A stretch of DNA of 64,000 bases from Thermodesulfobacteriota bacterium (GTDB lineage: Bacteria > Desulfobacterota > Desulfarculia > JACQYL01): positions 1,088,001 through 1,152,000 of the forward strand of contig CAXXLZ010000002.1 of the NCBI GenBank assembly GCA_963675595.2, written 5' to 3'. The stretch's first letter is position 1, and each line of letters begins with the position of its first letter. Below, in pieces: positions 546 to 25,659 of this stretch. The position numbers and the translations under genes are program-made. The notes under the pieces are model-generated. The model was not told the DNA's origin, made no database searches, and saw nothing but the letters and a program-made list of their open reading frames with translations.

Positions 546-845
546 TTAGCGTATTACCCTACTCGCCTCAGGCACTCCTTCGTGGGAGTGTCGGTTCAAA
601 GCTTCCCAGATTTCTCGATCTTCTTTGTCGAATCGCGATTCCAAGCGGGTAAGTTTCTTGCAGTGGTGTTCTCTCCATTCAAGGCAGTGTGTTTCGTCGA
701 CCTTTTCCCTTAGGACGCCTTTTAGGTCTTCAATCACTCCTCGCATATCATTCCACTTGGTCACCCAGATATGGGCGATCAGCCCGTTGACCAGAGTGAA
801 CACAAGTGAACCCGCAACAATAAGGAAGTCGGCGTACTTCTCCAT
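546..845 (-). CDS. Small lysis-region membrane protein (N-terminal TM helix plus coiled coil)
   Basis: 99 aa, FLIVAGSLVFTLVNGLIAHIW hydrophobic segment; 7 bp downstream of the holin. Confidence 0.6.
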   Translation of the reverse strand: MEKYADFLIVAGSLVFTLVNGLIAHIWVTKWNDMRGVIEDLKGVLREKVDETHCLEWREHHCKKLTRLESRFDKEDREIWEALNRHSHEGVPEASRVIR

Positions 846-852
846 TGGAAGG

Positions 853-1248
853 TCATTCCTTTTTGCTTAGAATTTTCTCCGCGCTACGTCCCACCACATA
901 CCCGCCCACGCCCACGTTGAGCAGCGCCCAGAGGCCGTCGGGTAGTTCGAGCATGACCACCTTGTCGGTGAAGGCGGACAGATAGGGGACAATGATGTAA
1001 TTGTTCACCACGATGGCCATGATGGACACCATGAGCATGGGGCGCCAGTTGCGTTGGAGCCAGGAGCCCCGGGCTTCCAGCCGGACGATGCTGGCCCGGA
1101 TTTCCTGATCCTGCAGCATGGCCGCCTGCATGCCGGCTTGGATCTCGGCCTTGGCTTTGGCCTTGTCCGCTTCACTCATGGACGGCGGGAACCAGTGATC
1201 CAGGACCTTACCCGCCACGTTCAGGGCCGTGTCGATAATGGGTATCAT
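853..1248 (-). CDS. Holin, 3TM gene-transfer-release family (GTA_holin_3TM/DUF3154-like)
   Basis: SWLQRNWRP...LWALLNVGVGGYVVGRSAEK signature; adjacent to endolysin; GGAGG RBS. Confidence 0.85.
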   Translation of the reverse strand: MIPIIDTALNVAGKVLDHWFPPSMSEADKAKAKAEIQAGMQAAMLQDQEIRASIVRLEARGSWLQRNWRPMLMVSIMAIVVNNYIIVPYLSAFTDKVVMLELPDGLWALLNVGVGGYVVGRSAEKILSKKE

Positions 1249-1257
1249 AACGTCCTC

Positions 1258-1605
1258 CTAATAGAGCCAGATGGTCGGCGCCGGTTTGCCCGGCACGTCG
1301 TCCACATGGATGAAGTCCTTGCCGATGCCGACCCGGCGAAAACCGGCCTCGATCAACGATTGGACGATTCTGAAGCGCATATCGCCGGAATCCGCGGCGA
1401 TATCCGCCGCAAGACCCGTTGTATGGTTGCCCTTGCCCCCAACGGCTTCGTCGTGTGTCCGGCAACGATAGCCGCTGGTGATCGCGAAAGGAACTCCCGC
1501 TAGCTCCCGCGCTTTATCCAAACGATCAAGGAACGGTTCACTCATATCCGCCTGACCGCACCCGCACCTGCACTTGAACTCTTCGATCTCGAAATATTTC
1601 ATCAT
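1258..1605 (-). CDS. Endolysin, peptidase M15 family (Zn peptidoglycan peptidase)
   Basis: YF...EFKCRCGCG, ITSGYRC..H, H..GLAADI, FIHVD motifs. Confidence 0.9.
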   Translation of the reverse strand: MMKYFEIEEFKCRCGCGQADMSEPFLDRLDKARELAGVPFAITSGYRCRTHDEAVGGKGNHTTGLAADIAADSGDMRFRIVQSLIEAGFRRVGIGKDFIHVDDVPGKPAPTIWLY

Positions 1606-1671
1606 TTACCTCTAAGCTAGCGTTTTTTCGGTAGGGAAGCCCCAACCGAAATTTCGAGTCCAAATTTTTCG

Positions 1672-1869
1672 TTAGATCGCGCAGACCCCGTCCGCGCATC
1701 GCATTCCGAACACCGGGACCGCCAAAGGCTTCACGATGAACCGCTCACAGTGATCCGGCTCCGGAAGCGGGTTGATCCATTGTTCCGTTTTGGATGTGAG
1801 CCTTGCCCATCCACAGACGTCCCAGACCGAGTACGTATTCATGAGCGGGCAGACTTTCGGACGTTCCAT
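1672..1869 (-). CDS. Small Cys-rich hypothetical phage protein
   Basis: MERPKVCPLMN...CGW...HCERF...CADGVCAI; probable start is the internal ATG overlapping the upstream gene. Confidence 0.4.
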   Translation of the reverse strand: MERPKVCPLMNTYSVWDVCGWARLTSKTEQWINPLPEPDHCERFIVKPLAVPVFGMRCADGVCAI

Positions 1870-2060
1870 AAGAGTCGCCCCCAGATGATTGTGTAGACCT
1901 CGGCGATATACAACACGCCCCACTGCCGATGCTTCCACGCGGTCCAGAGCCAGGCGGGCTGAGCCAGAAGCGCCGCGATCAGGCCGAGTTGATTACGGCC
2001 GGTGAGCATCAGCCCGAGCGACGCGGTACCCAGGGCCGCGATGACGAGTTGCGTGATCAC
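1839..2060 (-). CDS. Small multi-TM phage membrane protein
   Basis: 73 aa, hydrophobic, LAQPAWLWTAW..QWG motif; start overlaps upstream stop (GTGA). Confidence 0.6.
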   Translation of the reverse strand: MITQLVIAALGTASLGLMLTGRNQLGLIAALLAQPAWLWTAWKHRQWGVLYIAEVYTIIWGRLLWNVRKSARS

Positions 2061-2410
2061 CTGCCTTCGGCCTCCCCGCGCAGCCGTTTCACTTCCCCCT
2101 CCAGGGCCTCCACTTCCCCGGCCAGGTCGCGTTTCTCCCGTTCCAGAACTTCGATTTGCTTGCTGAGTGAGGCCGCGGTCACTTGGTCTTCACCAACAGC
2201 CGAGCAAATCGCCCGAGGAACGAAGAGCGCCCGGAGCCCTTTGATTCCGAGCATCCTCAGGCGCTTCCGGCCCAGGTGCTTCATGATGCGAGGATGGTCG
2301 GCCGTTTCAATTGTCTGCCGTCCCATCAGGGCTTCCTGCAAGTCGAAACGCCCGAGCAGATGTTCGAGATCCTCAGGCATGAGGGGGATCGGTGCCGTTT
2401 GATTGGTCAT
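2057..2410 (-). CDS. Hypothetical phage protein with C-terminal coiled coil
   Basis: Start at MTNQTAP with AGGAGG RBS just after the hub stop; heptad-rich C-terminus LSKQIEVLEREKRDLAGEVEALEGEV. Confidence 0.55.
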   Translation of the reverse strand: MTNQTAPIPLMPEDLEHLLGRFDLQEALMGRQTIETADHPRIMKHLGRKRLRMLGIKGLRALFVPRAICSAVGEDQVTAASLSKQIEVLEREKRDLAGEVEALEGEVKRLRGEAEGR

Positions 2411-2418
2411 GGGGCCTC

Positions 2419-5400
2419 CTATACGGTGGGCACGGTATTCCACGTTCCACCGACGGTATATGATGTCACGATGCCTTTTTTGTGCTTGAGCTCGATCACC
2501 CTGGCCTGAAGCGTTCCGCCGTTCCATCTCAGGTCGTACACGAAATTATTGGTGGTCTCCGAGCTCGGCACGCCCTGAGTGCCTCCTGCATAGAAATCGT
2601 CACCTCGAATGCTTGCGCCGTAGACGTTGCTCCACTTGTAGCTGCTTGAGCCGAGATTCCGTGTGCCGCTCGGCAACAGCGAACGAGCGAGCGTTGCCGT
2701 GCCGAGGGTACTCGAACTGATCAAAAAGGCGTTGCTCCCTCCCATGAGCACTTGAAAGCCGCTCAGGGCGCCGTCCTGTAGACTTAAAACCGAGGCATAC
2801 CATCTGAAGGTGTTCACGCCGAATTGCAAAACCGTGCTATTGGAAACTTCGAGAGGAGCGATATTTAGTGCGGGGGTTCCGGCCCCCACGTTTCCCCAAA
2901 TGGTCGCGATATTAGTGGAGCCGCGTAGGAATTTGATCTCCGCTTGATCTTCCCCACTGTCGGCGGCCCGCATGATAATATCCGCGCCGTTGTCCAGCGT
3001 GACGGACACGCCCGCCGCGATGACTCCCGATATCAGCTTGTCCACTGAAAGGTTGGCGATCTTGGCATTGGTCACGGCCAGGTTGGCAATTTTGCCCTCG
3101 GTGACCGCCAGGTTTCCGATCTTCGCCGTGGTGATGGACAGGTCCGCGTAATCGTCCGTCCCCTGTTGCGCGGGCGTCGCGCTCCCCATGTACACTCCGG
3201 CGGTGGACGACGGATTCCCGGTGTTATCGAACGCCCGAATCCAGTAGTAATAGGTGGTGGTGTAGCCGGTGGCCTTATCGTCGATCTTCTGCATGATCTC
3301 ACCGGGGCCGCCGGAGATGGAAAACGTGGGGGCCGTGGTATCGAAATTGGGAGCCGAGCCGTTGGTCTTTCTCCATATGCCGACCCACTTGAAGTCTTCG
3401 TCGGCCGGATTGTTCCATTCCAAACTGATACTGCGCTTCGCCGCGGTCACTGACGTAGAAAACGGGCTCGACGGCCCGGTCGTGTCCCCCGGAGCCAGTT
3501 GGTTCTCCAGGGTGATTGCGGTCGATTCCAACGCGAAGTTATTCACCGCCTTGGCCGCGAAGTCGTACTGCAGGCCGGGCGTGAGGCCGTCGAACCGAGC
3601 CTTCCAGGTACCCGATCCGGCGTCCTGGCCGTCCTGCCAACGGTAGGTCGTTTCGCCGTCTTTCTTGCAGCCGAAGACGATCTTGGCGAAGTTGGACGGA
3701 CTGTCCGCGCCCTTGACCGCTTCCACCACGAAAAAGGCTGTGGCGCCGCCGTCCTGGGCCACATACGCGCCGGAACTCGAAACCCCGATATCGGTCGGAT
3801 CATCCGGGGGCGTTCTTGAATAATCCGCGCCGCCCGACTCTTCTCCGTCGCCGGGCAGGGTACCTTCGTCATAAGTGTAGAGCTCGCTTGAATACGCCGC
3901 GACCGTTGCGGTGAAGCCTTCCAGGCCCCGCTCCAGGTCGATGACCCGGTATTCGCCGTTGGAAAGCAGTTCGACCAGGCTCACATCGTCCACATACCAG
4001 GTGCCGGTGGTCCTATTATAACTGCTGACTCTTATGTAACCGTATGCCCCGCCAACGGGTTCATCATATTCAACTTCAATGAGGTTCCACTGATTCAGCG
4101 TCAAACCTGTATGGTTCGTGTAGTCCACATAAGCGGAATTGTCGCCTTTCCTGATGGATATCTGGACGTTGTCATAATCGGTTGGATATACCCAAACTCT
4201 GCACCTATAGTGCTTTCCCGCCTCAACCGTGAAGTAACTACTCCAAATGCCTTCTTGATTCGAATTTACCGTGAATTTTCTTGAATAAGTCCCGGAATGG
4301 GCCTGCTCGGAGGAACGTTCATTTACGGTTGGGGTCCCGTAGCTTGCCCAATCGGAATCAGCCTCCATCGTCCCGTTGGGGACCAAGTTATCGCCCATGA
4401 TCCCGACGTTGAGTCTCGGCACGGAAAGCGAGATCACGTCCCCCGCGTTCAACGTCTTGGCGTCCTGGCCGAGCACCAGGTCCAACCGTTCGGCGGTGTA
4501 CAGGTGAAGCCGCTGGGTCCAACAGGCGATGCGGTCCGCCGTCTCCTTGTCCCGCACAAAGTCCAGCCGCTCGACCTTGTCTTCCCCGAAATCCGCGTTC
4601 ACCGTGCGTGAGCTGGTGGTGAACTCGTAGGAGCCGTCTTCGGCGCGGGCGTACTCGAATTGAATGGTCTTGATCGCGTCCCGGCTCGACGGGCGGTACC
4701 GGGGACCGGCCTGCACGATGTTCCCCTCGGCCGTGGAGAAGGTTCCCGCGCTTTCGGACACGTATTCGCCGTCCACGGAGATGAACCAGGACCCGTCCGC
4801 CCCTTGGGTCAACCGGCCCATGCAGCAGAACACCAGGGCGTCGATGATCTCCTTGGCCCGAGTTTGGGATGTGACCGCTCCATCGCACTTGAGCACCGCG
4901 ATGTCGGTGACCGCCGCGGCCGCGTCGAAGGAGTCCGAGTCCACGCTGAGCCCTAAGCCCCACGTGGCGTCCGACAGCACGTTCCGGATCACTTCCACGA
5001 AGTTCCGTTGGGCCTCGGTGTCGCCCATTTCCAGGCCGTACCAGTCGGCCTTGAGCTCGTAGAAATTGCCGCTGACGTCCCGCTGCTCCCACCCGGACCC
5101 GGTAAACTTCACCGTGGCGTAACCCTCGAAAGGCGACCCCGCGGAACCGTCATAACAGACCACCGTTGCGGCCATCTCCGTGGAACCCACCACCACGTCG
5201 TTACGGTACAAATTGACCGTCGTGGACTTGTTCGAATCGTTGCTCTCGGAGACGCCCCAGCCCACCAGGTAATGAGCCTCGTTATTCACCGAGTCGTTCT
5301 TGACGAGGGTGAGCGGAACCTTTTTGCACCGCCCGAACAGGATGTTGATGGAGGCGCCCAGGGAGTCTTCCGGCGCGTCTGGAAAGAGTTCCGCCGTCAC

Positions 5401-5907
5401 GGTCCGCGCTGGCAGGAGCTTGCTCAGCTCGTCCGGCTCCCGAAAGGACACGCTCACCCGCACCACGTCCTCGTAATCCACCCGGTCCACCCGGCCGGAC
5501 ACGGCGAAACGTTCGGTCAGACCTTCCGTGGTCTTGGTGTAGGGCGTCTCCCAGGAAGCGCCGGATTCCCAAGATACGCCCTCCTCCCAGGACACCAGCC
5601 GGTTGATCTGCTGCGTCGAGGTCTCATAGTCCGCCCTGGCAAGCGTGACTCGGGCGCCCCGCCAGTCCACCGGAGCCACGCCCCAGAGAAGCTCCTTGAT
5701 CTCCCCGTCCTCGTCGGACAGCTCCACCGTCACGTCCCCGTGCTCCAAAAACCCCGAGTACACCTCCGTGAACGTGTCCCGGACGGCCGGGTGAGCCTTC
5801 ACCACGCCCTTGTACTCGGTGGAGCCGTCGTAACAGTCCGCCGTGGCGAACCGGTGCACGGTCTCGCCTTGCGTGATGTCTATGAGCAGAATCGGGACGA
5901 TGGGCAT
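2419..5907 (-). CDS. Tail hub/central fibre (host-specificity) protein with carbohydrate-binding and Fn3-like domains
   Basis: 1162 aa in tail module; NLVPNGTME...WYVDDVSL CBM-like insert, Fn3-like segment (GLTPGLQYDFAAKAVN), ITTAKIGNLAVTEGKIANLAVTNAKIANL repeats. Confidence 0.8.
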   Translation of the reverse strand: MPIVPILLIDITQGETVHRFATADCYDGSTEYKGVVKAHPAVRDTFTEVYSGFLEHGDVTVELSDEDGEIKELLWGVAPVDWRGARVTLARADYETSTQQINRLVSWEEGVSWESGASWETPYTKTTEGLTERFAVSGRVDRVDYEDVVRVSVSFREPDELSKLLPARTVTAELFPDAPEDSLGASINILFGRCKKVPLTLVKNDSVNNEAHYLVGWGVSESNDSNKSTTVNLYRNDVVVGSTEMAATVVCYDGSAGSPFEGYATVKFTGSGWEQRDVSGNFYELKADWYGLEMGDTEAQRNFVEVIRNVLSDATWGLGLSVDSDSFDAAAAVTDIAVLKCDGAVTSQTRAKEIIDALVFCCMGRLTQGADGSWFISVDGEYVSESAGTFSTAEGNIVQAGPRYRPSSRDAIKTIQFEYARAEDGSYEFTTSSRTVNADFGEDKVERLDFVRDKETADRIACWTQRLHLYTAERLDLVLGQDAKTLNAGDVISLSVPRLNVGIMGDNLVPNGTMEADSDWASYGTPTVNERSSEQAHSGTYSRKFTVNSNQEGIWSSYFTVEAGKHYRCRVWVYPTDYDNVQISIRKGDNSAYVDYTNHTGLTLNQWNLIEVEYDEPVGGAYGYIRVSSYNRTTGTWYVDDVSLVELLSNGEYRVIDLERGLEGFTATVAAYSSELYTYDEGTLPGDGEESGGADYSRTPPDDPTDIGVSSSGAYVAQDGGATAFFVVEAVKGADSPSNFAKIVFGCKKDGETTYRWQDGQDAGSGTWKARFDGLTPGLQYDFAAKAVNNFALESTAITLENQLAPGDTTGPSSPFSTSVTAAKRSISLEWNNPADEDFKWVGIWRKTNGSAPNFDTTAPTFSISGGPGEIMQKIDDKATGYTTTYYYWIRAFDNTGNPSSTAGVYMGSATPAQQGTDDYADLSITTAKIGNLAVTEGKIANLAVTNAKIANLSVDKLISGVIAAGVSVTLDNGADIIMRAADSGEDQAEIKFLRGSTNIATIWGNVGAGTPALNIAPLEVSNSTVLQFGVNTFRWYASVLSLQDGALSGFQVLMGGSNAFLISSSTLGTATLARSLLPSGTRNLGSSSYKWSNVYGASIRGDDFYAGGTQGVPSSETTNNFVYDLRWNGGTLQARVIELKHKKGIVTSYTVGGTWNTVPTV

Positions 5908-5923
5908 CGAGATCGTTTGACAT

Positions 5924-5970
5924 GGGAAACCCTTTGAAAAGGGTTCCCCATGCCCCTCCTAAACTTTTTG
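5924..5970. repeat. Palindromic repeat family B (GGGAAACCCTTTGAAAAGGGTTCCCC...AAACTTTT)
   Basis: Hairpin plus tail shared with copies at 14639, 14875, 18452, 19674, 20750, 22078, 23777; overlaps the stop codon of the 5959-6309 gene. Confidence 0.85.
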
Positions 5971-6309
5971 AGCGGCGAGCTTCACCGCTTCGATTTCCTC
6001 TTTGGTTTGCGCGGCCTCCACGGCGGCCTTTTCGGATGCAATGAGTGCATCCAACTTGGCTTGCCGAAGCTCGGCGATCTTGGCGGCCTTGGAGGCTTCC
6101 AGTTCCGCCGCTTCCCGCGCGGCCAGCTCCTCCTTTGTAAATTCGGGTTCGGGAATATTGCCTGCCGCAAGCCACTGTTGAATCTGTTGGTAATGGCGGT
6201 TGCGGGGATCGGGGGGCACCCATATGGTTTGCCCGTCCAGGTCAACGGCGTACCCGCCACCTTCCTGTAGCTTTACCCGACTTGGCTTAAATTCGACCTG
6301 TTCGTCCAT
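5959..6309 (-). CDS. Tail fibre assembly chaperone-like protein
   Basis: VPPDPRNRHYQQIQQWLAAGNIPEP motif typical of small proteins downstream of tail fibres. Confidence 0.7.
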   Translation of the reverse strand: MDEQVEFKPSRVKLQEGGGYAVDLDGQTIWVPPDPRNRHYQQIQQWLAAGNIPEPEFTKEELAAREAAELEASKAAKIAELRQAKLDALIASEKAAVEAAQTKEEIEAVKLAAQKV

Positions 6310-6318
6310 GATCCACTC

Positions 6319-8022
6319 CTAAAGCTCCGCATCTCCGGTGATTTTGCCGGATGTGGTCAGAATGATCAAATAACCATCCGTCAACCCGTGGGATGTTTTG
6401 TCCGCCTGAATGTCGATGTGATCCTTTCTCCTCGAGCTTGTTGCCGAGAAGGTAAATCCGGTCGTGCTGCTACGGTCTACCTTGTATACCGCTATGTCGG
6501 TGTTCGGCGTGCCGACGATGGTCACGGATGGGGTGGCACGCATGGGAACGATTGGTATAACAAATCGGATGTCGTTCGTTCCGTAGTTGGTCATTCGAAA
6601 AGCCGAATACTCACCGAATACCTGATAGTACCTCCGACACAGAGCCAGCTCATAGCCCGGTTGTCGCACTTCAAACTCGGTGGCATGGCTGCCGAGTTCG
6701 AGCTGCACCTGCGCGATTCTGATTTGAGTTGCTGCTGCCTGAACTCCTGGAGTGTTAATTCTAACATACAATCCATTACTACAGTTTGAAGGCACTGCTG
6801 GAATTATATACTTATAATAAGTCCAACTGCTTGAAATATCCGTAAAATCTTCATAATCCTGAAGAGTAATGCTTGATAAATCATCCTCAGAATCTGCTGA
6901 GTAGATATTTACTCGAAGCGAGGTGCTGGTTCCGGCAACTTTTTTACACCAAAAACTTATAGTTATAGGTTTTCCAACAAGCTGTCGTGCGATATAGGCT
7001 TCTATCGGCTGTCCAATACTTACGGGATAATTAGCCACAGAGTTTGATAAATCCATAGAATACTTTGACTTACCGTTACTTGGAACGTCCGTATTTGCAG
7101 AAACCACCATATCCGCGAAGACGGCAATATTTAATATATTCCACCTATCGGCAGTATATGCGTCATAAACCTCCGTTATGCTCGTTCCTCGCTGCCAAAT
7201 GTCAAAGTTTCCATTGATTATTAAGTTCTTACCTAAGCCCAAATCGTCAACCACGGCCGCAACGTTGGCCGGAGTGACAATTCTGGATGTATCTGTACCG
7301 GCTAAGGTTTCGGCTTCCGTAGCTAATTCCGCGATCCCCTCAGCGCTCTCCGTAGCAGACGAAACGGAAGCGGAAGTATCATCATTTACCCATTGATTCG
7401 TGGCTCCATCATAGACAAGTATCTGACCACTACTTGGACTTCCAGCAACAACTTCAATGCCATTCAAATAGTCCGCATCAACACCATCCGGAATCCAAGC
7501 GTTATCTAAAGTGCCCCCAACTCCCCCAAGAGGAACAACCCCTGAACCAGCAGTAGCAGAAATGGTTAGGTCGGTAATGTCGCTTACAACATGATTGTGG
7601 GAAGCGTCCGCGAACGCCGAGGCATGTTCACCGTCCACCGTGTCGGCGTCGAGGCCGCTGCCTGGGCCGTCTTGGATCCATCCGGGATCCAACTTGCCAC
7701 CGGCCCCGCCGAGAGGAATCACGTTCGAACCCGGTGTGCCGGAAATGGTTTCCAGGTCCGGCACATTGGCCTTGGGCACTTCCGGCACGTACTCCAACCA
7801 CCGGCCGTTATTCGCCCCGGCATCGTCGGGTTTGACGGTGTATGGATGGCTCGCAACGGATTCCGACGCGGACGATGACGCCGCGAACCGAAACACATAA
7901 GACTTGGACGACGCAGTGACGAACGCCAGGTCTCCATCGTTCAAATCCGTCCACGGAACGGCGTCCAGGGCATTGGTCCCGCCTCCGGTCAAAGCCGTGC
8001 ATTCGTACACCTTGATCGACAC
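6319..8022 (-). CDS. Tail fibre / receptor-binding protein (about 567 aa; true start GTG at 8022)
   Basis: GSGLDADTVDG, ATESAEGIAELATEAE fibre repeat, KNLIINGNFDIWQRG...VQLELGSHATEFE..ELALCRRYY; GTG overlaps upstream TAG with GGAGG RBS. Confidence 0.85.
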   Translation of the reverse strand: MSIKVYECTALTGGGTNALDAVPWTDLNDGDLAFVTASSKSYVFRFAASSSASESVASHPYTVKPDDAGANNGRWLEYVPEVPKANVPDLETISGTPGSNVIPLGGAGGKLDPGWIQDGPGSGLDADTVDGEHASAFADASHNHVVSDITDLTISATAGSGVVPLGGVGGTLDNAWIPDGVDADYLNGIEVVAGSPSSGQILVYDGATNQWVNDDTSASVSSATESAEGIAELATEAETLAGTDTSRIVTPANVAAVVDDLGLGKNLIINGNFDIWQRGTSITEVYDAYTADRWNILNIAVFADMVVSANTDVPSNGKSKYSMDLSNSVANYPVSIGQPIEAYIARQLVGKPITISFWCKKVAGTSTSLRVNIYSADSEDDLSSITLQDYEDFTDISSSWTYYKYIIPAVPSNCSNGLYVRINTPGVQAAATQIRIAQVQLELGSHATEFEVRQPGYELALCRRYYQVFGEYSAFRMTNYGTNDIRFVIPIVPMRATPSVTIVGTPNTDIAVYKVDRSSTTGFTFSATSSRRKDHIDIQADKTSHGLTDGYLIILTTSGKITGDAEL

Positions 8023-17970: not shown

Positions 17971-17984
17971 GTCAGCCTCCTTTT

Positions 17985-18135: not shown

Positions 18136-18156
18136 GCGTGAGTCAAGATCCGGATG

Positions 18157-18405: not shown

Positions 18406-18414
18406 AAGCCTCTC

Positions 18415-18502: not shown

Positions 18503-18518
18503 TCCTTCATCTCTCCGC

Positions 18519-19652
18519 CTATCCCGCCAGCCTGGCGGCCATGCGGGCGTCCAGGGTTTTGACTCCGTAAAGGATGTCCAGGCCCACCTTCACCGAACTG
18601 GTGTCTCCGTCGTACCAGACTCGAGATCGGATGGAGATCCCGTCCCGGGTCACCGTGGCGATCTTGGCTCCCAGTTCGTTGCCCATTTCCGAAAGAGGCG
18701 CCGTGGCCAGGGCAAAGGCGTTACGGTGGAAGGCGAGGTTCACCGTGTGCGTTCCCTTGAAAGTAATGACGTCTCCGTCCAGGGCCTGAGCCGCGAGGCC
18801 GGGCGTGAAGGCCAAGACGATTTCATTGGCTGCGGCTTCGGCCGTGGAGGTGATGACGTATGTCTGACTGTTGCTCGCAACACTGAACACGTCCCCCACG
18901 GCCACGGTACCGGCCAGGGTGCCGGAGCCTCCGTTGTCCGCAGTAAGGGTGGTTTCACCCGCGTCCGTGTCCGCTTTGACGCTGATGACTCCGCCGCCTT
19001 CTCCGGCCAGGGTTCCCTTGGAGTGAGTGGGGGTGTTCTGGTTGACGAAAAGATCGAACCCGAACTTGATGCCGAGGTTGCCCGTGCGAAGTGCCTGGCC
19101 CTGGTCTCCCACCGTCGCGGCGTTGTAAAACAGTTGTCCCAGCTTGTCTTCCGCCGCGGAATCCAGCATGAGGAAGGTGCGGCCATCGAACGGCACGTTG
19201 TTGTCCCGAAGCACCTTTTTGACTCCCGTGAGGTCTTCCACCGCGTCGGGGGTGTCACCGGCTGTGCCGTGCCACGAGTACACGTCCTTGTAGAGCGCCG
19301 CCAAGTCCTGATCCACCTGGTCCGCCAGAGCGTACGCAGCAGGAGCGATGTGATCCGTGATGATCTTTTCCTTGGTGAAGGTCAGCTCTTTGTCGGACAG
19401 GGCAAACTTCACCTCGTACCACTTATCCAGGGTGATCTGGACTCCCTCGGCCGTGAGAGACATGTCGCTTCCAGGCGCGGACTGAGCCGAAAAAGTGGAC
19501 GGTCTCGAAATGTTGATGGTGCTGCCCTTTTGCTGAGGCGCGGCGTCGTACCCTCGATGCACCCGGGTGGATAAACCCAGGTTCTTTTCGAGCTGGATCA
19601 ACGCCTCCTGCGCGTAGAAAATCGGATTGTAATAAAGCAGCGTGTTGGACAT
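18519..19652 (-). CDS. Major capsid protein, P22 coat-like
   Basis: Start MSNTLL with AGGAGG; YAQEALIQLEK.LG, PAAYALADQVD, NLAFHRNAFALA, LDILYGVKTL motifs. Confidence 0.9.
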   Translation of the reverse strand: MSNTLLYYNPIFYAQEALIQLEKNLGLSTRVHRGYDAAPQQKGSTINISRPSTFSAQSAPGSDMSLTAEGVQITLDKWYEVKFALSDKELTFTKEKIITDHIAPAAYALADQVDQDLAALYKDVYSWHGTAGDTPDAVEDLTGVKKVLRDNNVPFDGRTFLMLDSAAEDKLGQLFYNAATVGDQGQALRTGNLGIKFGFDLFVNQNTPTHSKGTLAGEGGGVISVKADTDAGETTLTADNGGSGTLAGTVAVGDVFSVASNSQTYVITSTAEAAANEIVLAFTPGLAAQALDGDVITFKGTHTVNLAFHRNAFALATAPLSEMGNELGAKIATVTRDGISIRSRVWYDGDTSSVKVGLDILYGVKTLDARMAARLAG

Positions 19653-19673
19653 ATCCGGCCTCCTATTCTTGGT

Positions 19674-19966
19674 GGGGGAAAGCCTTCGAAGAGGTTTTCC
19701 CCCATGCCCCTTTCCCAGACTTTTCAAACCGGGCTCACCCGCCTTCGCCGGGAGAGCCGGGTCTGCTTCCGTGGTTCGTCGTTTCCCATACGCGCCTGCG
19801 GCAAAGCCGCCGGCGCTTGCTCAAAGGTTTTTGGGGAGAGGTCCGGGGAGGGGCGTTTTGCTAGAAAGCCCCTCCCCGACATCCCTCTTTCACCTTCCCT
19901 CGCTTCGTACGCCGCAGCGACGAAGGCTGAAGCGCAACGCCGCAGATGGCGTTTCTTGGCGGCCTG
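19674..19966. repeat. Inverted family B pair (19674-19878) followed by a family C copy (19907-19966)
   Basis: GGGGAAAGCCTTCGAAGAGGTTTTCCCC ... CGGGGAGGGCGTTTTGCTAGAAAGCCCCTCCCCG, then GTACGCCGCAGCGACGAAGGCTGAAGCGCAACGCCGCAGATGG. Confidence 0.8.
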
Positions 19967-20692
19967 TCAGGTGATTCTGACCCTGCCTTCCGCAAACGCT
20001 TCCCGATGTTGCCGGTAGATGTTGGGGTCCTTCATCTGTTCCTGAGTCAGGGCGACCATGCCTCCCGACGCGCCTCCGGCCGGGCTGCCTCCTCCGGACC
20101 CGCCCGAGGGCTTGAACAGGTGAGGCGATTTCTCACGAAGTTCCCCGACCAGTTCCTCGGCGGTCAGGGGATCGCCTTTGGTGGAAAGTCGTTTGCGACC
20201 TTCTCCATCGTGCACCATCACTCTGAGTTGGCCGTTGTGTTCTTCCACGGTAAGGTATTTGTTCAGACGAAGCCTTACGTCTTCGGGATCGAAGGCTCCG
20301 ACTCGGGCCGCGGCTTGAGACAGCTCGTTGCCCACCAGCAACCGGTGAATATTGCTCTGAAGCCGTTCGATCTCTTGGTTCTTCCCATTGATCGTCAGCG
20401 CGTGATCCTCGTCCTTACGTTGGAGCAATTCCTGGTACCGCTTCTCGTCCAGGAGTTCTTTCTCCCGGTCTGCCTTGGCTCCGGCATCGAGTTCCCGAAA
20501 CCGGTCCGGGTCCACGCCTTCGAAGCGTTTCTCCAATTCTCCGAGTTTGTTTTGGAGTTGCTCCGCCCATTTCTTGGTTTCGTCCAACTTGGCGGAGGGC
20601 ACGAAAGCGGCTTCTTTGCCGTCTCCAAGCTCGAACACCGGGTTGCCGTCCCTGAGTACCAAGTTGCCGTCATTGTCCAATTTGGGTTTCAT
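19967..20692 (-). CDS. Capsid scaffolding protein
   Basis: KLDNDGNLVLRDGNPVF N-terminus, charged coiled coil, LFKPSGGSGGGS C-terminus; upstream of capsid. Confidence 0.8.
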   Translation of the reverse strand: MKPKLDNDGNLVLRDGNPVFELGDGKEAAFVPSAKLDETKKWAEQLQNKLGELEKRFEGVDPDRFRELDAGAKADREKELLDEKRYQELLQRKDEDHALTINGKNQEIERLQSNIHRLLVGNELSQAAARVGAFDPEDVRLRLNKYLTVEEHNGQLRVMVHDGEGRKRLSTKGDPLTAEELVGELREKSPHLFKPSGGSGGGSPAGGASGGMVALTQEQMKDPNIYRQHREAFAEGRVRIT

Positions 20693-20749
20693 GCGTCCTC
20701 TCTTTGCCTTTATGAATGTCCAAACCTGGCTTGCTTATCGATTTGCTTG

Positions 20750-20935
20750 AGGGAACCCTTTGGAAAGGGTTCCCTCACCCTCCCAAACTTTTTAAGTCTT
20801 TCAGGACAGGCAGCTCGGCTTGCTTATGTTGAGATCGTGCCTCCGCTCCTCTCCGCCAAAGGCGGAGTGGGGCCTGCTCAAGGATTTTTGGAGGGTGGTC
20901 CGGAGGGAACCTTTTTGCAAAAAGGTTCCCTCCGG
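20750..20935. repeat. Inverted family B pair (MITE/REPIN-like)
   Basis: AGGGAACCCTTTGGAAAGGGTTCCCT ... CCGGAGGGAACCTTTTTGCAAAAAGGTTCCCTCCGG. Confidence 0.85.
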
Positions 20936-20950
20936 CTTCACTTCGCCCAT

Positions 20951-21928
20951 TCATGCCGCATCCGGGATGTCTTGGATGCGGAGGATGTTCCCGTGGTAAG
21001 ACACGTCTTCCAGAGGTAAGCCCGCTTTCCACCTTTTCCACCGGATGGGTCCGAGAATCTCTTTTTGAATGGATTCGCCCTGTCGGCGGAGCCATTCCAC
21101 ATAGTCCGATGAAGAGCCCGATTGAAAGTTGCCCATGCGGTCTTCAATGTAGGGCACGTAGACGCATCGGCAGTTGGGATGTTGAGGCACAAGCGGCCGG
21201 TTCGGGTCGTTTCGACCAAAGACCTTGCCCGAAGACGCGGCGCACTTTCCGCACGTAGCGGCGTCAAGCACGGCCACGTATAGGAGACGTTCCACCTTGG
21301 CACCGGCGAACACGTTTTCATTCACCGTGCCCGTGGTACTCATCACCGTGGTCCGAGCCAGAGTGCGGCTCAGTCGTCCGGCTATTTCGGCGACTTTCTT
21401 ACGGATTCTTTGAGCAGCCGAAGCCGGTCCGTCACCCGCCGACGCCGCTTCTACGATCGTTTTCTTGATTCGTCGGCCTATGCCTGTAAAGGCCCGTTTG
21501 ATCCAGGTCTTCAGGGACACCCAACCCACTTCGCTTTCCATGACCGACAGGAGCAACACAGCTTCCACGCCGGAGCTTTCGAACTCGATGCCGTCGACGC
21601 TCCCCCAGATGGATTCCATGGACTTGGTCTGAGCCTCGACAATCTCTTGAATCCTTCCTTCCAAATCGTTCATGAGTGAGGACTCGGCTTCCTCGATCCA
21701 GAGGTCGATATCCGCTTGGACCATTCTGAAGCGTTGCACCCACAGACCATCTTGCGCGTCGGCGATCCCTTTCCAGGGGCCTCGTGAGGCACGCAGCAGC
21801 CGAGATTCCACCTGTTCGACCACCCGTTCAAAAGCTCGCCTGAACAAACGCGCGTCCTTTCGGACTATGGAATCCATTCGCAACGCATTGGTGATCTGTC
21901 GGTCGACGGCCTGTTCCATGTCGGACAT
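20951..21928 (-). CDS. Minor head protein (Mu F / SPP1 gp7 family)
   Basis: TLART, AVLDAATCGKC, PQHPNCRC motifs. Confidence 0.9.
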   Translation of the reverse strand: MSDMEQAVDRQITNALRMDSIVRKDARLFRRAFERVVEQVESRLLRASRGPWKGIADAQDGLWVQRFRMVQADIDLWIEEAESSLMNDLEGRIQEIVEAQTKSMESIWGSVDGIEFESSGVEAVLLLSVMESEVGWVSLKTWIKRAFTGIGRRIKKTIVEAASAGDGPASAAQRIRKKVAEIAGRLSRTLARTTVMSTTGTVNENVFAGAKVERLLYVAVLDAATCGKCAASSGKVFGRNDPNRPLVPQHPNCRCVYVPYIEDRMGNFQSGSSSDYVEWLRRQGESIQKEILGPIRWKRWKAGLPLEDVSYHGNILRIQDIPDAA

Positions 21929-21960
21929 GATGCATGGCCCCTTTCCGGGTGGATTCTTTC

Positions 21961-22128
21961 GGGCAGGCACTATGGCCTACCCCTAAACGGGAAGACACCG
22001 CTGAGTTCCTGATTCCTTCACTCACCCCGCCATTGCTTGCCTCCAACGCCTCCCCGCTTGCGGGGTGGCGCCTGCCCAAAATGTTTTGAAGGAGGTCTGG
22101 AGGAAACTTTTTCAAAAGTTTCCTCCAG
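21961..22128. repeat. GTAG-like REP variant plus family B repeat
   Basis: GGGCAGGCACTATGGCCTACCCCTA (near-identical to 23638) and CTGGAGGAAACTTTTTCAAAAGTTTCCTCCAG. Confidence 0.8.
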
Positions 22129-22160
22129 TTCTTCCCTCCGCTTTTCCTTCCTCCCCCACC

Positions 22161-23531
22161 TCAAACCAGCATGGCGTCGGTTTCGACGCGCAGGCGTTCC
22201 CGTTCCAGCTCCGGATCGAAGTCTTCGTCCAACACGTGTTTCTTGCGGAGGAAATCCCAAAGGGTTTCCCGGGACAAGTCTCCGTTCATGCGCATTTGGT
22301 TCAGACCGGAGATGAGGCCGTCCGCGATCTGCACGGGATCCATGTCTTGGTTGTACTCGACTCGGATGTCGTCGGGGCTTAGCCCCATCCACCGGGCCGC
22401 CCACCGCCAACACTGCTCTTCCGCCCGTCCGGACCGTCTTGATCGCTCCTGCAGCACGCTGACCAGATTGTGCCTGTCTATCGCTTTGGATTCGGCACTC
22501 TCCACGAGCCTGGATGTGCGCCGCACTTGGCGCATACTGATCTCAAAGATGGCGGAAATGAGGTCCGTTTCGCTCCGCCTCATGGACTCGATAGCCGTGC
22601 CGGAATGCTCGAGGATTTCCACTTCCGAATCCCGTCCGGGAGTCACAATACCGTTGCCCGCACCGATGACCACTTCCTGATCTTCCGGCCAGTTCTTGAA
22701 CACCCAGGTAGGCATGCCCGCCCAGAACTCGGAATTGTCCCGGTCCGATGCTTTGCGAAAGTGAAGCAGACAAAGGCTCAAAATACCGTGAAGCGCACTC
22801 CGGCCTTGAAAAGCGCCCACACAATCGGAATAGAAAACCGCAAGAGGTATCTCTCCCAAGCTGTTACGTCCCTCGGCCAGTTTCTTCGGACCCTTCTCCA
22901 CTGCATCGTGTTTCCACAGCTCCCAGCCATCGGGCCGCCATAGCCGGTATCTTTTTTCTTTGGCGTGCCCTACGAAGGGCTCGGCCCGTACTTCCACGTC
23001 CTCCTCGATCACCACCCAGGCAAGGCGCTCCCTTCCGTCCGGCCCGGGCACAAAAGCCCAGTCCAACACGCGCCTCGGGTCCAGATCGATGAAATAGGGG
23101 CGCACGCCGAACGCGTTCTCATCCGCACGGCTTCGCACTTCCGACGTATCCGGATAATCCACGAGCACGAACCGGATGCCTTCCACCTGAGCGTTTTGAG
23201 TCACGTTCTTGAAGAACGCGTCCGCCGGGGTTCCCCTGCGGTCCACATCTCCAGCGAGCCCCTTAAGCCCAACCGGCAGTTCTCTTACAGGTCCCCTCCG
23301 CCAAATCTGTCCCGTGAAACTCTCAATCATGGGCAGGCAAAAATTGCTGTACGCCGCACGACTCAACCGCACCCGATAGTTCCCGGCCGTCTCCCGCTCG
23401 TGCTTGGGCAAGTAGTCCGACCGACCCTCGATGCGGCTCCCGCCTTCGTAACAATCCCGAGCCCGGTTCCATTCCGCGAGCTGACTTAGATACAAAGGAT
23501 GCTTTCGGTCTAGTTGGAGATATTGAGTCAT
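22161..23531 (-). CDS. Portal protein (DUF4055-like)
   Basis: Start MTQYL; HPLY....W, YLPK...E....Y..RL.RA, FVLVDYP, LGEIPL motifs; downstream of terL. Confidence 0.85.
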   Translation of the reverse strand: MTQYLQLDRKHPLYLSQLAEWNRARDCYEGGSRIEGRSDYLPKHERETAGNYRVRLSRAAYSNFCLPMIESFTGQIWRRGPVRELPVGLKGLAGDVDRRGTPADAFFKNVTQNAQVEGIRFVLVDYPDTSEVRSRADENAFGVRPYFIDLDPRRVLDWAFVPGPDGRERLAWVVIEEDVEVRAEPFVGHAKEKRYRLWRPDGWELWKHDAVEKGPKKLAEGRNSLGEIPLAVFYSDCVGAFQGRSALHGILSLCLLHFRKASDRDNSEFWAGMPTWVFKNWPEDQEVVIGAGNGIVTPGRDSEVEILEHSGTAIESMRRSETDLISAIFEISMRQVRRTSRLVESAESKAIDRHNLVSVLQERSRRSGRAEEQCWRWAARWMGLSPDDIRVEYNQDMDPVQIADGLISGLNQMRMNGDLSRETLWDFLRKKHVLDEDFDPELERERLRVETDAMLV

Positions 23532-23637
23532 TTTTTGTGTCCGGGGAACCCTTGGGCGTGGGCCGCGCGCTTCGCGCGGGGCCTGGTCACCGTGGAAATA
23601 ACGATCGAGGTTATCCTTGTGGTGCTTCTTCCTTAGA

Positions 23638-23832
23638 GGGCAGGCACTATGGCCTGCCCCTACATGGGATTTGCATGTTCGTGTAGGGGGCAGCCCACAG
23701 TGGTCGCTCTGGAAACAGGGTTCTCTCGATTTCCATGCCCGCCCCCTTTGCGCCTCCCGAAGGGTGGCGCCCACTCCAAGGTTTTTGGAGGGAGGTTCGG
23801 AGGGGACCTTTTTTCAAAAAGGTCCCCTCCGA
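23638..23832. repeat. Inverted GTAG REP doublet plus family B repeat
   Basis: GGGCAGGCACTATGGCCTGCCCCTAC-spacer-GTAGGGGGCAGCC; CGGAGGGGACCTTTTTTCAAAAAGGTCCCCTCCG. Confidence 0.8.
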
Positions 23833-23879
23833 TTCTCTCTCCCCCTTCCTTCCTTTTCTTCTCTCCCCTTCCCTTCCCA

Positions 23880-25163
23880 TCACACGGTCACCATTCTGGC
23901 TTTGCCGGCGTCTCGCACCGGGTGCTCGGCTTCGATGGCGTAGCCCAGAGCGTCGGTGAGGTGCGTAAGGTGCGGATCGGACTTCTTGTCGATGTCTCCG
24001 GAGGTGCCTTCGAGCACACGTACACCTTCGAAGTCTCGAATGGTTTGGGTGCATTTGGGGTCTACGACTAAATGGACTTCACCGGACGCGGTTTTCAGGC
24101 GACTGTTCACCGCGTTGACTCTTGCCCGTTCGGACGGGTTGGCTTTGGGAACCCGGTCGCTCAGGCGTCCCGAAAAGATCGGACGCAAAGCGGACTTCAC
24201 CAAGTCCCAATCGGTACCGGCGACTTGGGCCGTGCCTCGAGCTCCTCCCGAAGCATCTCCATACAGTCTTACGCGACCGGCATGATGCCGGTAGCGCTGG
24301 AGAAATTCATTGCAGACGGTCGGCGTGTTGGAATGTTTGGGAATATGGATTTCGTCGATGACGCCGGTGACCCCGTCACGTTCCTGCAAAATCCCCGCGA
24401 CACCGGGAGATACATTGAAATCCAGGCAGAACCAAAGGTCCTCCTTGGCTTCGTAGGCAAAGGAGCGCACGTGTTCGTCTCGGGAGAACGGGTAGTAGAT
24501 TCGTCCTTGGAACGCTACGAAAGCCGCTTCGTATTCCTGCCGAAAGGTTGCCGGGTCCAGTTCCCGCCGGGCCGCCTCGATTTCCGCGGGAGGCAGAATG
24601 TCCGATGAGAACCAGGTGTAGCCCCGCCAATCCCGATTCGTGGGATCGCAGGCAAATGTGTACAAGTCATAGTAATGATTGCGTCCTTCCGGGACTCCGA
24701 TCATCCAGGCCCAGCCGGTTCGGTCGGACAAAGCGGGCCGCACGTGAGCCGGCCACGTTTCAGCTTTCATGTTGGCGTATTCGTCCAGCACAACGCCGTC
24801 CCAGGGAGAACCCTCGATGCGTTCCGGCTTGTCCAAACCCAGAACCCACAGCTCCGCCCCCCAGCGAGTACGGATGAACAGATCGCTTTCACTGATCTTG
24901 GATTTCCATTCGGTCGGTACCAGGGCTTTCAGGTCGTTCCAGTAGATACGCTTGGGCTGATCCCGAGTGGGCGCACAGGCCGCGTACCTCGTGTCCGGCC
25001 AAGGCTTCACCTCCACCAGGGAAGTGACGAGAAATCGTTTGGCCAACTCGGTCTTGCCCGACCTCCGCCCGGCGGGCACCACTCTGAAACGTACGTCGTC
25101 GGCCCAGAGAGCGTACTGAATCGAATGGGGGCGAAGCACCGTCCAACGACTAGTCGGAGGCAC
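23880..25163 (-). CDS. terL: Terminase large subunit
   Basis: Walker A AGRRSGKT, Walker B VVLDE, FRQEYEAAF, nuclease LDFN and HLTDAL. Confidence 0.95.
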   Translation of the reverse strand: MPPTSRWTVLRPHSIQYALWADDVRFRVVPAGRRSGKTELAKRFLVTSLVEVKPWPDTRYAACAPTRDQPKRIYWNDLKALVPTEWKSKISESDLFIRTRWGAELWVLGLDKPERIEGSPWDGVVLDEYANMKAETWPAHVRPALSDRTGWAWMIGVPEGRNHYYDLYTFACDPTNRDWRGYTWFSSDILPPAEIEAARRELDPATFRQEYEAAFVAFQGRIYYPFSRDEHVRSFAYEAKEDLWFCLDFNVSPGVAGILQERDGVTGVIDEIHIPKHSNTPTVCNEFLQRYRHHAGRVRLYGDASGGARGTAQVAGTDWDLVKSALRPIFSGRLSDRVPKANPSERARVNAVNSRLKTASGEVHLVVDPKCTQTIRDFEGVRVLEGTSGDIDKKSDPHLTHLTDALGYAIEAEHPVRDAGKARMVTV

Positions 25164-25659
25164 AATCTTTGCCTTTCACCGTGGCACGGTTCATTTCCTG
25201 AAGGCTCTCCAGTACCCGGTCGGCGAAGTCTTTCGACCCGTCATCCTTCGATTCGCGAGAGTTTCCTACTCGCTCGAGGAGTTCCCGTAGTCGATTGATT
25301 TCATCCTGTGTCTTGTGAATGAGGCGGAACAACGCAATTTCAGCGCTTGGTGCAAAGCTGTGAGTGGTGGTGACTTCCAGGCTCCCATTGGAGTATTCGG
25401 TCCGCTTGACCTCTTCCCATCCCTCTTGGAAGCGCTCCAACCGTTCGTTGAGCCTGGCGAGTTCCGCATCCTTCTGAGCCACCGCGTGAACCAGGTCGTC
25501 TTCTCTGGAGAATCCGAGATCGTTTTCGATGACCCAACGCAAAGCTCGTTGCACCGTGCTTTGGGACACACCGAGTTCCTGCGCGATGTGAACAACGTTC
25601 AGACCGCGTCGTTTCAGTTCGAATATCTTGAAGTAGCGGTCCTGGGTTTCCTTTGTCAC
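25150..25659 (-). CDS. terS: Terminase small subunit (N-terminal HTH)
   Basis: IAQELGVSQSTVQRAL helix-turn-helix; overlaps the terL start. Confidence 0.75.
   Translation of the reverse strand: MTKETQDRYFKIFELKRRGLNVVHIAQELGVSQSTVQRALRWVIENDLGFSREDDLVHAVAQKDAELARLNERLERFQEGWEEVKRTEYSNGSLEVTTTHSFAPSAEIALFRLIHKTQDEINRLRELLERVGNSRESKDDGSKDFADRVLESLQEMNRATVKGKDCASD

What the first reader, a model, noticed from the sequence alone, without database searches (positions are those of the whole stretch)
546..25659. Candidate gene transfer agent (domesticated siphovirus-type particle locus) in a Desulfobacterota genome
Seen: a complete, single-strand 25-kb set of packaging, head, tail, fibre and lysis genes with intact terminase motifs and an intact chaperone frameshift. 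It starts at terS only 266 bp from a divergent host gene and ends at the lysis genes next to a host-like membrane ORF. No integrase, excisionase, repressor, replication or recombination gene and no convincing att repeat is visible. Repeats fill the intergenic gaps, yet no ORF is broken, which suggests long residence under purifying selection. Known: GTAs such as RcGTA, BaGTA and VSH-1 are structure-focused clusters that package host DNA; the holin here resembles the 3TM family named for gene-transfer release, although ordinary phages carry it too. The Desulfovibrio agent Dd1 was described as short-tailed, whereas this locus has a 1293-aa tape measure, a P22-like capsid and a scaffold. Inference: an independently domesticated, host-regulated GTA-like system. 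Retention of head and terminase argues against a tailocin.
Basis: partly seen in the sequence, partly recalled or inferred. Interest (0 to 1): 0.88.

Follow-up and report, generated by a model that had tools for sequence, protein, structure and literature searches.

The report
Early-gene-less phage particle locus
A complete, intact set of phage head, tail and lysis genes sits fixed between host genes with no integration or replication genes, so it is a plausible but unproven domesticated particle-making locus, and it does not fit the classical gene transfer agent pattern.

Summary
Window 340-25659 (minus strand) carries a complete siphovirus late region, terS to holin, with no broken ORF and an intact -1 chaperone frameshift. 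No integrase, recombinase, repressor or replication gene lies in it or beside it. Both flanks are host genes. An IS rearrangement at the lysis end, once undone, again gives a host flank. In another study's sample about 3% diverged, one contig bridges the same terS-host junction. Its cluster pieces show 348 substitutions and 2 gaps. A host-wide hairpin repeat family fills the intergenic gaps, while a complete prophage on contig C1 has none. These points favour long residence and maintenance.

The GTA label is not earned. [quoted passage not shown] The head module's cultured relatives have 55-62 kb genomes. The nearest related cluster, in another genus, lies at a different locus, and a third family member lacks it. 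The "GTA holin" family also occurs in the C1 prophage.

Best reading (about 0.45): a grounded, selectively maintained particle locus that probably packages from a specific pac site into the adjacent chromosome. No expression or particle data exist.

The parts
25150..25659 (-). Small terminase, 169 aa: N-terminal helix-turn-helix, then an oligomerisation helix, a beta hairpin and a second helix
   Evidence: Pfam HTH_23 scored 24.7 bits against a cut-off of 24.6, with 11 further hits, most of them HTH families, at E<=0.01. The AF2 model has pLDDT 88 with helices 3-17, 22-29 and 33-45. The best Foldseek hits are the G20c/P74-26 small terminases at E 4e-3 to 2e-2; none reaches 1e-3.
23880..25163 (-). 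Large terminase, 427 aa, with Walker A AGRRSGKT
   Evidence: phrog_2 at 1.3e-34; Terminase_6N; Walker A motif; 76% identical to the G001 orthologue.
22161..23531 (-). Portal. The 456-aa form is likely; the open frame extends to 23774.
   Evidence: phrog_145 at 4e-98; DUF4055; the collection's own entry is 456 aa.
20951..21970 (-). Head morphogenesis / minor head protein
   Evidence: phrog_241 at 4.6e-29.
19967..20692 (-). Scaffolding protein
   Evidence: phrog_206 at 1.2e-30.
18519..19727 (-). Major capsid protein, P22 coat family
   Evidence: phrog_283 at 1.9e-72; PF11651 at 8.5e-39.
16070..17970 (-). Head-tail joining genes: Ad1 (17488-17970), Hc1 (17133-17486), tail completion (16679-17212) and two unassigned ORFs
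   Evidence: phrog_477, phrog_161 and phrog_169.
14933..16060 (-). Tail tube protein
   Evidence: Phage_tube_2 at 8e-56; phrog_290.
13871..14606 (-). Tail assembly chaperones G and G-T, with a -1 frameshift at A_AAA_AAC (14232-14226)
   Evidence: phrog_313; three-frame translation and slippery site.
9989..13870 (-). Tape measure protein, 1293 aa. Assigned by position and length; no family hit.
   Evidence: It follows G/GT directly. The G001 orthologue is 36% identical over residues 1-1151.
2419..9927 (-). Tail tip and fibre genes: 8899-9927, 8022-8798, 6319-8340 (fibre), 5959-6309 and 2419-5907 (fibre-like)
   Evidence: phrog_4492 at 1.3e-42 for 6319-8340, and weak fibre hits for 2419-5907. 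Homologues lie in the tail regions of the G001 cluster and the C1 prophage.
340..2527 (-). Lysis end: small ORFs, endolysin (1258-1605), holin (853-1248), and unassigned ORFs at 546-845 and 340-525
   Evidence: phrog_894 and phrog_3427; Peptidase_M15_3 and GTA_holin_3TM.
14840..23850 (-). Six copies of a host-wide two-hairpin repeat of about 100 nt in intergenic gaps: 23765-23850, 22040-22125, 20848-20940, 19800-19885, 18415-18510 and 14840-14932. A weaker seventh copy lies at 5925-5988.
   Evidence: the repeat finder. nhmmer gave 221 genome hits, 9 of them in the cluster at 7 places. The covariance model found at least 150 hits in G000 and 109 in G001.
8827..17133 (.). Five copies of a 28-nt GC-rich palindrome, just upstream of the tube, 8899 and 8022 genes and inside the Hc1/tail-completion overlap
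   Evidence: 4 of the 12 genome copies (<=2 mismatches) lie in the cluster.
25926..26879 (+). Right flank: host membrane protein with a Cys-rich C-terminal domain, divergent from terS
   Evidence: Translation. Its C-terminal domain matches the paralogues found (17 places other than the two halves of the cut gene). No phage family was found.
1..238 (-). Left flank: N-terminal part of a host gene cut by an IS. The IS lies at window -2049 to -172; the C-terminal part of the gene now lies at C2:712361-712588.
   Evidence: The IS target duplications do not match, and a 210-codon frame is restored by joining the flanks. 10 of 17 paralogue alignments start at least 11 residues before the junction and cross it.

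Best explanation
This is a grounded (non-excising, non-replicating) siphovirus late-gene locus. It holds a full packaging, head, tail and lysis module that has lost every early, lysogeny and integration function. It sits fixed in a divergent host intergenic region and has been kept intact by selection.

Shown:
- Completeness and intactness of the module.
- Host genes on both flanks.
- The same right junction in a roughly 3% diverged sample.
- Colonisation of its intergenic gaps by host-wide repeats.
- A phage-type TerS.

Inferred:
- When expressed, through a host or other trans-acting signal (no regulator is encoded), it builds capsids and tails and lyses the cell with its holin and endolysin.
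- Because TerS keeps a sequence-reading HTH domain, and the head module's cultured relatives have 55-62 kb genomes, packaging would start at a specific pac site in or near terS. It would then run by headfuls through the 25-kb locus into the neighbouring chromosome.
- That would make it a lateral-transduction-like launch pad, GTA-like in effect, rather than a small-headed random packager.
For: - The module is complete and the G/GT frameshift is intact.
- Core genes align over nearly their full length with the G001 orthologues.
- The right flank is host: Usp, histidine kinases, Fe-S proteins.
- The left flank is an IS. Undoing the IS exchange rejoins a host gene, and the ancestral neighbour L003 is host: MsrAB, TED, LpoB.
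- No tyrosine integrase lies within 200 kb, and the genome's only serine recombinase is 3.5 Mb away.
- In sample X4 one contig bridges 24549-27995, from terL through terS into the host flank. Its cluster pieces (9894 nt) show 348 substitutions (3.5%) and 2 gaps. The host flank 28001-32000 shows 95 substitutions (2.4%).
- All the listed indels that fall in the cluster lie in intergenic gaps (table 4; 18 further rows were not shown).
- 12 of the 20 variant positions listed in cluster genes are silent.
- The host-wide repeat occupies 7 places in the cluster and none in the 65-kb C1 prophage region.
- The TerS HTH is supported.
- Related clusters in G014, G010 and G007 also begin at terS, and no recognisable early genes lie upstream.
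Against: - There is no expression, particle or packaging evidence of any kind.
- No promoter-like site was found upstream of terS and no regulator was identified.
- The variant table was truncated (723 rows not shown), so no proper dN/dS was computed. The 20 positions are a small, non-random sample.
- X3 pieces carry 23 gap positions whose places I could not see; some could break frames in that strain.
- The left junction was not examined in other samples.
- Cluster divergence (3.5%) exceeds that of the one host-flank piece measured alone (2.4%).
- GC is 58.5% against 56.2% for the genome, so amelioration is incomplete.
- Several flank ORFs in the related genomes have no annotation at all, so 'early-gene-less' is not proven there.
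- Capsid capacity and packaging direction are inferred, not measured.
Confidence: 0.45

Rival explanations
1. Inert defective prophage remnant. The early half was deleted and the late half survives by chance, silent and without benefit to the host.
For: This is the commonest fate of prophages. The genome is IS-rich, with 21 copies of one IS, one of them at the cluster's edge. No regulator or promoter was found. GC is slightly foreign. Repeat invasion of the gaps may reflect relaxed constraint.
Against: No ORF is broken, even though there was time for 7 repeat insertions. Divergence from X4 is about 3.5% with only 2 gaps in 9.9 kb of cluster pieces. The programmed frameshift is kept. 12 of the 20 listed variants are silent.
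Confidence: 0.25
2. Classical gene transfer agent: a host-regulated, small-capacity particle that packages random host DNA and is inherited vertically.
For: The locus is structure-only and endogenized, and it is conserved in place in a diverged strain. Early-gene-less relatives occur in other genomes of the class. The holin belongs to PF11351.
Against: TerS is 169 aa with an HTH. [quoted passage not shown] The capsid is of the P22 coat family, and the nearest cultured portals belong to 55-62 kb phages. G001 carries its cluster at another locus and G002 has none. PF11351 also occurs in the C1 prophage.
Confidence: 0.12
3. Helper-dependent element. The locus is switched on, and perhaps mobilised, by a complete prophage such as the one on C1, which would supply early functions in trans.
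For: C1:1288-1348 kb holds terL, a primase, an integrase and a holin that is 95% (amino acid) and 87% (nucleotide) identical to this one. That indicates exchange within one phage gene pool.
Against: Only the holin is shared. No shared regulatory sequence was found. The other head and tail genes have no close copy on C1; the endolysin (51%) and the 8899 gene (43%) are only distant relatives.
Confidence: 0.1
4. Complete prophage whose early module is hidden by misassembly or rearrangement.
For: The IS at the left edge lacks matching target duplications.
Against: Rejoining the true partner flank restores a host gene that directly abuts the lysis end, and that neighbour region is host. An independent sample's contig confirms the terS-host junction.
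Confidence: 0.03

Closest known systems
BhGTA / VSH-1 of Brachyspira hyodysenteriae
   Same: A single structural gene cluster that makes siphovirus-like particles (PMC9662315, passage seen). That it holds lysis genes, lies among host genes and lacks integration or replication genes is my recollection of Matson et al. 2005, which I did not read.
   Different: BhGTA is 16.3 kb, with a 45-nm head that cannot hold its own cluster. Here the cluster is 25 kb, the coat is of the P22 family, the TerS is phage-type, and no particle data exist. No sequence relationship was tested.
RcGTA-like GTAs (Rhodogtaviriformidae)
   Same: Endogenized head-tail genes. The holin family PF11351 is named for them.
   Different: RcGTA TerS is 107 aa without a DNA-binding domain. 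RcGTA-like clusters co-diversify with their hosts. Here TerS has an HTH, and the nearest relative sits at another locus. I did not compare the other genes directly.
PBSX-type defective prophage of Bacillus subtilis (recalled from my own knowledge; no call)
   Same: A late operon plus lysis genes without integration or replication functions, chromosomally fixed and kept intact.
   Different: PBSX carries its own repressor and late regulator and has undersized heads. No regulator was found here and the head size is unknown.
Lateral transduction by pac-type prophages (P22, S. aureus phages)
   Same: In situ packaging from a prophage pac site into adjacent chromosome (PMC8575938; search listing and start of abstract only). 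This is the mechanism I infer for a pac-type TerS that cannot excise.
   Different: Those phages are complete and also excise and replicate. Here the element would do only the in situ part. This is inference only.
Cluster in G001 (same family, another genus): contigs C22 and C69
   Same: It is colinear from terS to holin. Identities are terL 76%, capsid 75%, tube 70% and portal about 65%.
   Different: Both flanks differ. Small unassigned ORFs and an IS21-like element lie upstream of terS. Only one repeat copy lies in the 24.5-kb contig C22, which holds the terS-to-tape-measure part.

Membership tests
Gene transfer agent (viriform definition, PMC9662315) | Particle proteins derived from tailed phages | tested here: met
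   PHROGs and Pfam hits to terminase, portal, capsid, tube, chaperone, fibre and lysis families.
Gene transfer agent (viriform definition, PMC9662315) | Genome fully endogenized in the host genome | tested here: met
   No integrase, recombinase or replication gene lies in or beside the locus. Both flanks are host. The same right junction occurs in X4. The left junction was not checked in other strains.
Gene transfer agent (viriform definition, PMC9662315) | Particles mostly hold random host DNA | not testable with these tools
   This needs sequencing of DNase-protected particle DNA.
Gene transfer agent (viriform definition, PMC9662315) | Head too small to hold the agent's own genes | tested here: inconclusive
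   Only indirect evidence: the coat is of the P22 family and the nearest cultured portals belong to 55-62 kb phages. That suggests capacity above 25 kb, so this feature is probably not met.
Gene transfer agent (viriform definition, PMC9662315) | Mostly vertical inheritance and co-diversification with the host | tested here: inconclusive
   The locus sits in the same place in a sample about 3% diverged. But G001's cluster lies at another locus, G002 has none with this query, and only 8 of 41 related genomes matched.
Gene transfer agent (viriform definition, PMC9662315) | Packaged DNA is delivered to other cells | not testable with these tools
   This needs marker-transfer experiments.
Gene transfer agent (GTA-type small terminase; PMC6854486, PMC11841831) | [quoted passage not shown] | tested here: not met
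   TerS is 169 aa. HTH families match residues 11-42. The model shows a three-helix N-terminal domain at pLDDT 88. The nearest folds are the G20c/P74-26 TerS, with weak E-values. Predicted GTA TerS proteins are 92-125 aa.
Complete temperate prophage | Integrase or recombinase, a lysogeny and replication module, and att repeats | tested here: not met
   The best boundary repeat is 10 nt and the window holds no tRNA. The C1 prophage does have an integrase and a primase.
Tailocin (phage-tail bacteriocin) | Tail genes without capsid, portal or terminase | tested here: not met
   Capsid, scaffold, portal and both terminase subunits are present and intact.
PBSX-like defective prophage (features recalled from my own knowledge) | Own repressor and late-gene regulator upstream of the late operon | tested here: not met
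   Only 266 bp separate terS from a host gene. No regulator family was found in any of the 30 cluster ORFs or in 26904-27470.

The most novel reading that the evidence does not exclude
Desulfobacterota may harbour a recurrent class of terS-first head-tail(-lysis) loci without recognisable early genes. Examples seen here are this locus, its G001 relative, and more distant ones in G014, G007 and G010. On this reading they are kept by their hosts as fixed chromosomal launch pads: a phage-type TerS starts packaging at a site inside the locus, and headful packaging exports the adjacent chromosome. This would be a third route to domesticated gene transfer. It would differ from small-headed random-packaging GTAs and from lateral transduction by live prophages.
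Probability: 0.25. Interest if true: 0.8.

Novelty: new variant of a known kind. Interest (0 to 1): 0.6.

Why it matters
If functional, this would be the first gene-level candidate for a domesticated particle system in this branch of the Desulfobacterota. My two searches found nothing in print on such loci there beyond the Desulfovibrio agent.

It would also be a natural test of whether a grounded prophage with a sequence-specific terminase can serve its host as a directional gene-export device. The prediction is sharp and cheap to test: one-sided, stepwise read depth starting at terS in DNase-protected particle DNA.

If the locus is inert, it is still a well-documented case of an unusually intact prophage half colonised by host repeats.

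Tried and rejected
- Split-off early module. I looked for one behind the IS. The true partner flank (C2 up to 712585, L003) is host, so this was rejected.
- Close relatives, to study synteny and dN/dS. IMG/VR gave 20 loci, GTDB genomes 5 loci and JGI metagenomes 27 loci with terL. All were at most 62% identical, and the seven longest that I compared with the cluster's proteins share little beyond terL.
- The protein collection holds no member that is 90-99% identical to the portal.
- Cultured phages are at most 30% identical.
- dN/dS among strains could not be computed. Read laying lists only 40 of 763 variant places and is capped at one call.
- No RNA holder was listed among the sequencing runs, so there is nothing on expression.
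- The sigma-70 and terminator scan upstream of terS found nothing.
- Rfam gave nothing above gathering score for the repeats.
- A first exact-motif count wrongly suggested that the repeats are cluster-specific. Profile and covariance searches corrected this.
- tblastx synteny plots among G007, G010 and G014 were too noisy until filtered by score.
- Pfam or PHROGs found nothing in 13 flank ORFs of G014, G010 and G007. They remain unknown and are not shown to be host genes.
- ORF-length tests for the other two IS joins were indecisive.
Supplementary files of papers were not consulted.


Full report
**What is there.** The window is G000:C2:1088001-1152000 of a 6.79-Mb, three-contig genome. From 25659 down to 340, on the minus strand, lies an uninterrupted phage late region. 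PHROGs gave a family for 18 of the 30 minus-strand ORFs I submitted. In order they are:
- terS
- terL (phrog_2, 1.3e-34)
- portal (phrog_145, 4e-98)
- head-morphogenesis protein and scaffold
- major head protein (phrog_283, 2e-72)
- adaptor Ad1, head closure Hc1 and tail completion protein
- a tube-type protein and the tail chaperone
- a 1293-aa ORF in the tape-measure position
- two unassigned tail-tip genes, a fibre (phrog_4492, 1e-42) and a second fibre-like 1162-aa protein
- small ORFs, endolysin and holin

Pfam added P22_CoatProtein, Phage_tube_2, Peptidase_M15_3, GTA_holin_3TM and Terminase_6N. terL has a Walker A motif. The chaperone pair has a canonical A_AAA_AAC slippery site at 14232-14226, and the -1 frame stays open through the T part. 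The core genes align over nearly their whole length with the orthologues of the closest relative, G001.

**What is missing, and the flanks.** None of the 30 ORFs hits an integrase, repressor, replication or recombination family. To the right, 266 bp from terS, a divergent gene encodes a membrane protein. It ends in a Cys-rich domain that has many paralogues in this genome. After it come a universal stress protein, two histidine kinases and Fe-S proteins.

To the left, just outside the window, is a 1878-bp IS with a DDE transposase. The genome holds 21 full copies. This copy has no matching target duplication. Its right flank (AGCTC) matches the left flank of the copy at C2:712586. Joining those two flanks restores a 210-codon frame. 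10 of the 17 paralogue alignments start at least 11 residues before the junction and cross it. The lysis end therefore originally abutted the start of a host gene. The DNA beyond it (L003) is host: MsrAB, a thioester-domain protein and an LpoB-like protein.

The three copies with cyclically swapped duplications fit a 371-kb segment that moved from C1 into this IS by IS recombination. Only the one join is independently supported.

The genome has 11 tyrosine-integrase matches, none within 200 kb, and one serine recombinase 3.5 Mb away. The window has no tRNA. The best direct repeat across the boundaries is 10 nt.

**Evidence on residence and maintenance.** Eleven of the twelve intergenic gaps longer than 40 nt carry hairpin repeats. 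The main one is a two-hairpin unit of about 100 nt.
- A profile built from the six cluster copies finds 221 hits genome-wide.
- A covariance model built from six cluster copies and ten other copies finds at least 150 in G000 (the scoring cap). It finds 109 in G001, 30 in G007, 9 in G014 and 3 in G010.
- It is therefore a host repeat family, not a phage feature.
- The cluster holds it at 7 places. The 65-kb prophage region on C1 holds none.
- The G001 relative has one copy in the 24.5-kb contig C22, which holds its terS-to-tape-measure part.

Public runs from two other studies hold near-identical sequence. In X4 a 3463-nt contig covers 24549-27995, from terL through terS and the 266-bp spacer into the same host genes. 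Five other X4 contigs cover 9894 nt of the cluster with 348 substitutions (3.5%) and 2 gaps. The host flank 28001-32000 has 95 substitutions (2.4%) and no gap. The indels listed inside the cluster fall in intergenic gaps, and two intergenic repeat regions are replaced by different lengths in X3 and X4. Of the 20 variant places shown inside cluster genes, 12 are silent.

These data argue against neutral decay since the strains split, but they are incomplete:
- 723 variant rows and 18 indel rows were not shown.
- X3 pieces carry 23 gap positions that I could not place.

**Why it is not a classical GTA on present evidence.** The viriform definition lists random host DNA, endogenization, a head too small for the agent's own genes, vertical co-diversification and delivery (PMC9662315, passages). 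Only endogenization and phage ancestry are met here.

The one sequence-level hallmark proposed for GTAs fails. [quoted passage not shown] This TerS is different:
- It is 169 aa.
- It matches HTH families at residues 11-42.
- It folds, at pLDDT 88, into a three-helix N-terminal domain followed by a helix, a hairpin and a helix.
- Its best, though weak, structural matches are the G20c and P74-26 small terminases.

The coat is P22-type, and the nearest cultured portals (at most 30% identity) belong to phages of 55-62 kb. A head smaller than 25 kb is not indicated.

Deeper inheritance is not vertical. Of the three species genomes in the family, G001 has a colinear cluster (terL 76%, capsid 75%) with both flanks different, and G002 has no match. 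Overall 8 of 41 related genomes matched the portal.

The PF11351 holin also occurs, 95% identical in protein, in the C1 region. That region has its own terL, a primase and an integrase, so it looks like an ordinary prophage.

**A pattern that keeps the bold reading alive.** In G014 (a complete genome), G010 and G007, clusters with related head modules (portal 38-41%) also start at terS. Recognisable host genes or unannotated ORFs lie upstream, and host genes lie beyond the far end where I looked (G014 and G010).
- G014: a sigma-54 activator, then Pta and EutQ upstream; TetR, a hydrolase and a DEAD-box helicase at the far end.
- G010: a CheZ-domain protein, YbaK-like protein, PurL and PurQ upstream; unannotated ORFs and then an Mrp/ParA-type ATPase at the far end.
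- G007: a homologue of that CheZ-domain gene, then glycosyltransferases.

No PHROG family was found in the ten unannotated ORFs tested. Their tail modules differ from ours, which is phage-like mosaicism. Several flank ORFs remain unknown, so this is a lead, not a result.

**Most likely mechanism.** I read the locus as a grounded late-gene module that the host lineage has kept intact. It encodes no regulator, so it needs an outside signal. If it fires, it should assemble full particles and lyse the cell. With a phage-type TerS and no excision or replication, packaging would begin in situ at a pac site and proceed by headfuls into the chromosome. This is the logic of lateral transduction (PMC8575938, listing and abstract only). 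The steps from 'expressed' onward are inference.

Rivals and their odds are given in Rival explanations. The inert-remnant reading remains substantial at 0.25, because no expression or particle evidence exists.

**Verdict.** I class it as a new variant of a known kind, with interest 0.6.

Noticed in passing
G000 C2:712586-714463, C2:1085951-1087828 (window -2049 to -172), C1:337377-339254: Three copies of a 1878-bp IS have cyclically swapped 4-5-bp target duplications. This fits a 371-kb segment (C2:714464-1085950) excised from C1 and inserted into the IS at the cluster's edge. Alternatively it could be misjoins at IS copies in the assembly.
   Followed up: partly
window 26622-26876 and window 1-238 plus C2:712361-712588; G001:C69:12038-12304; G014:C1 about 3657100-3657340: Both genes that flank the cluster end in the same uncharacterised Cys-rich domain (IPICxxCKKIRDD...HGICPxC). 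It has no Pfam family. The nearest Atlas clusters are hypothetical proteins of Thermodesulfobacteriota. Copies also lie 17.5 kb and about 8 kb from the related clusters in G001 and G014. This could be chance or a functional link; it is unexplained.
   Followed up: partly
genome-wide, e.g. G000 C2:1267939-1268039; window 14840-23850: A two-hairpin intergenic repeat of about 100 nt has at least 150 copies in G000 and 109 in G001. It has no Rfam family. The first stem shows compensatory changes between copies. It may be a REP- or MITE-like element or a structured RNA.
   Followed up: partly
G000 C1:1288000-1348000: A second phage region of about 60 kb looks like a complete prophage: integrase, primase, terL, portal, a 1336-aa tape-measure-like ORF, a 3571-aa ORF and a PF11351 holin. 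It carries none of the host repeats.
   Followed up: partly
window 19907-19971: Another short repeat in the scaffold-capsid gap has 41 blastn-short hits across the genome.
   Followed up: no
G000 C2:36643-36939: A 58%-identical paralogue of the unassigned 99-aa ORF (window 546-845) that follows the holin. Its neighbourhood was not examined.
   Followed up: no
G001:C22:20549-22783: An IS21-like element (IstA in two pieces, plus IstB) lies 4.8 kb upstream of terS in the closest related cluster. It may have removed or interrupted whatever lay there.
   Followed up: no
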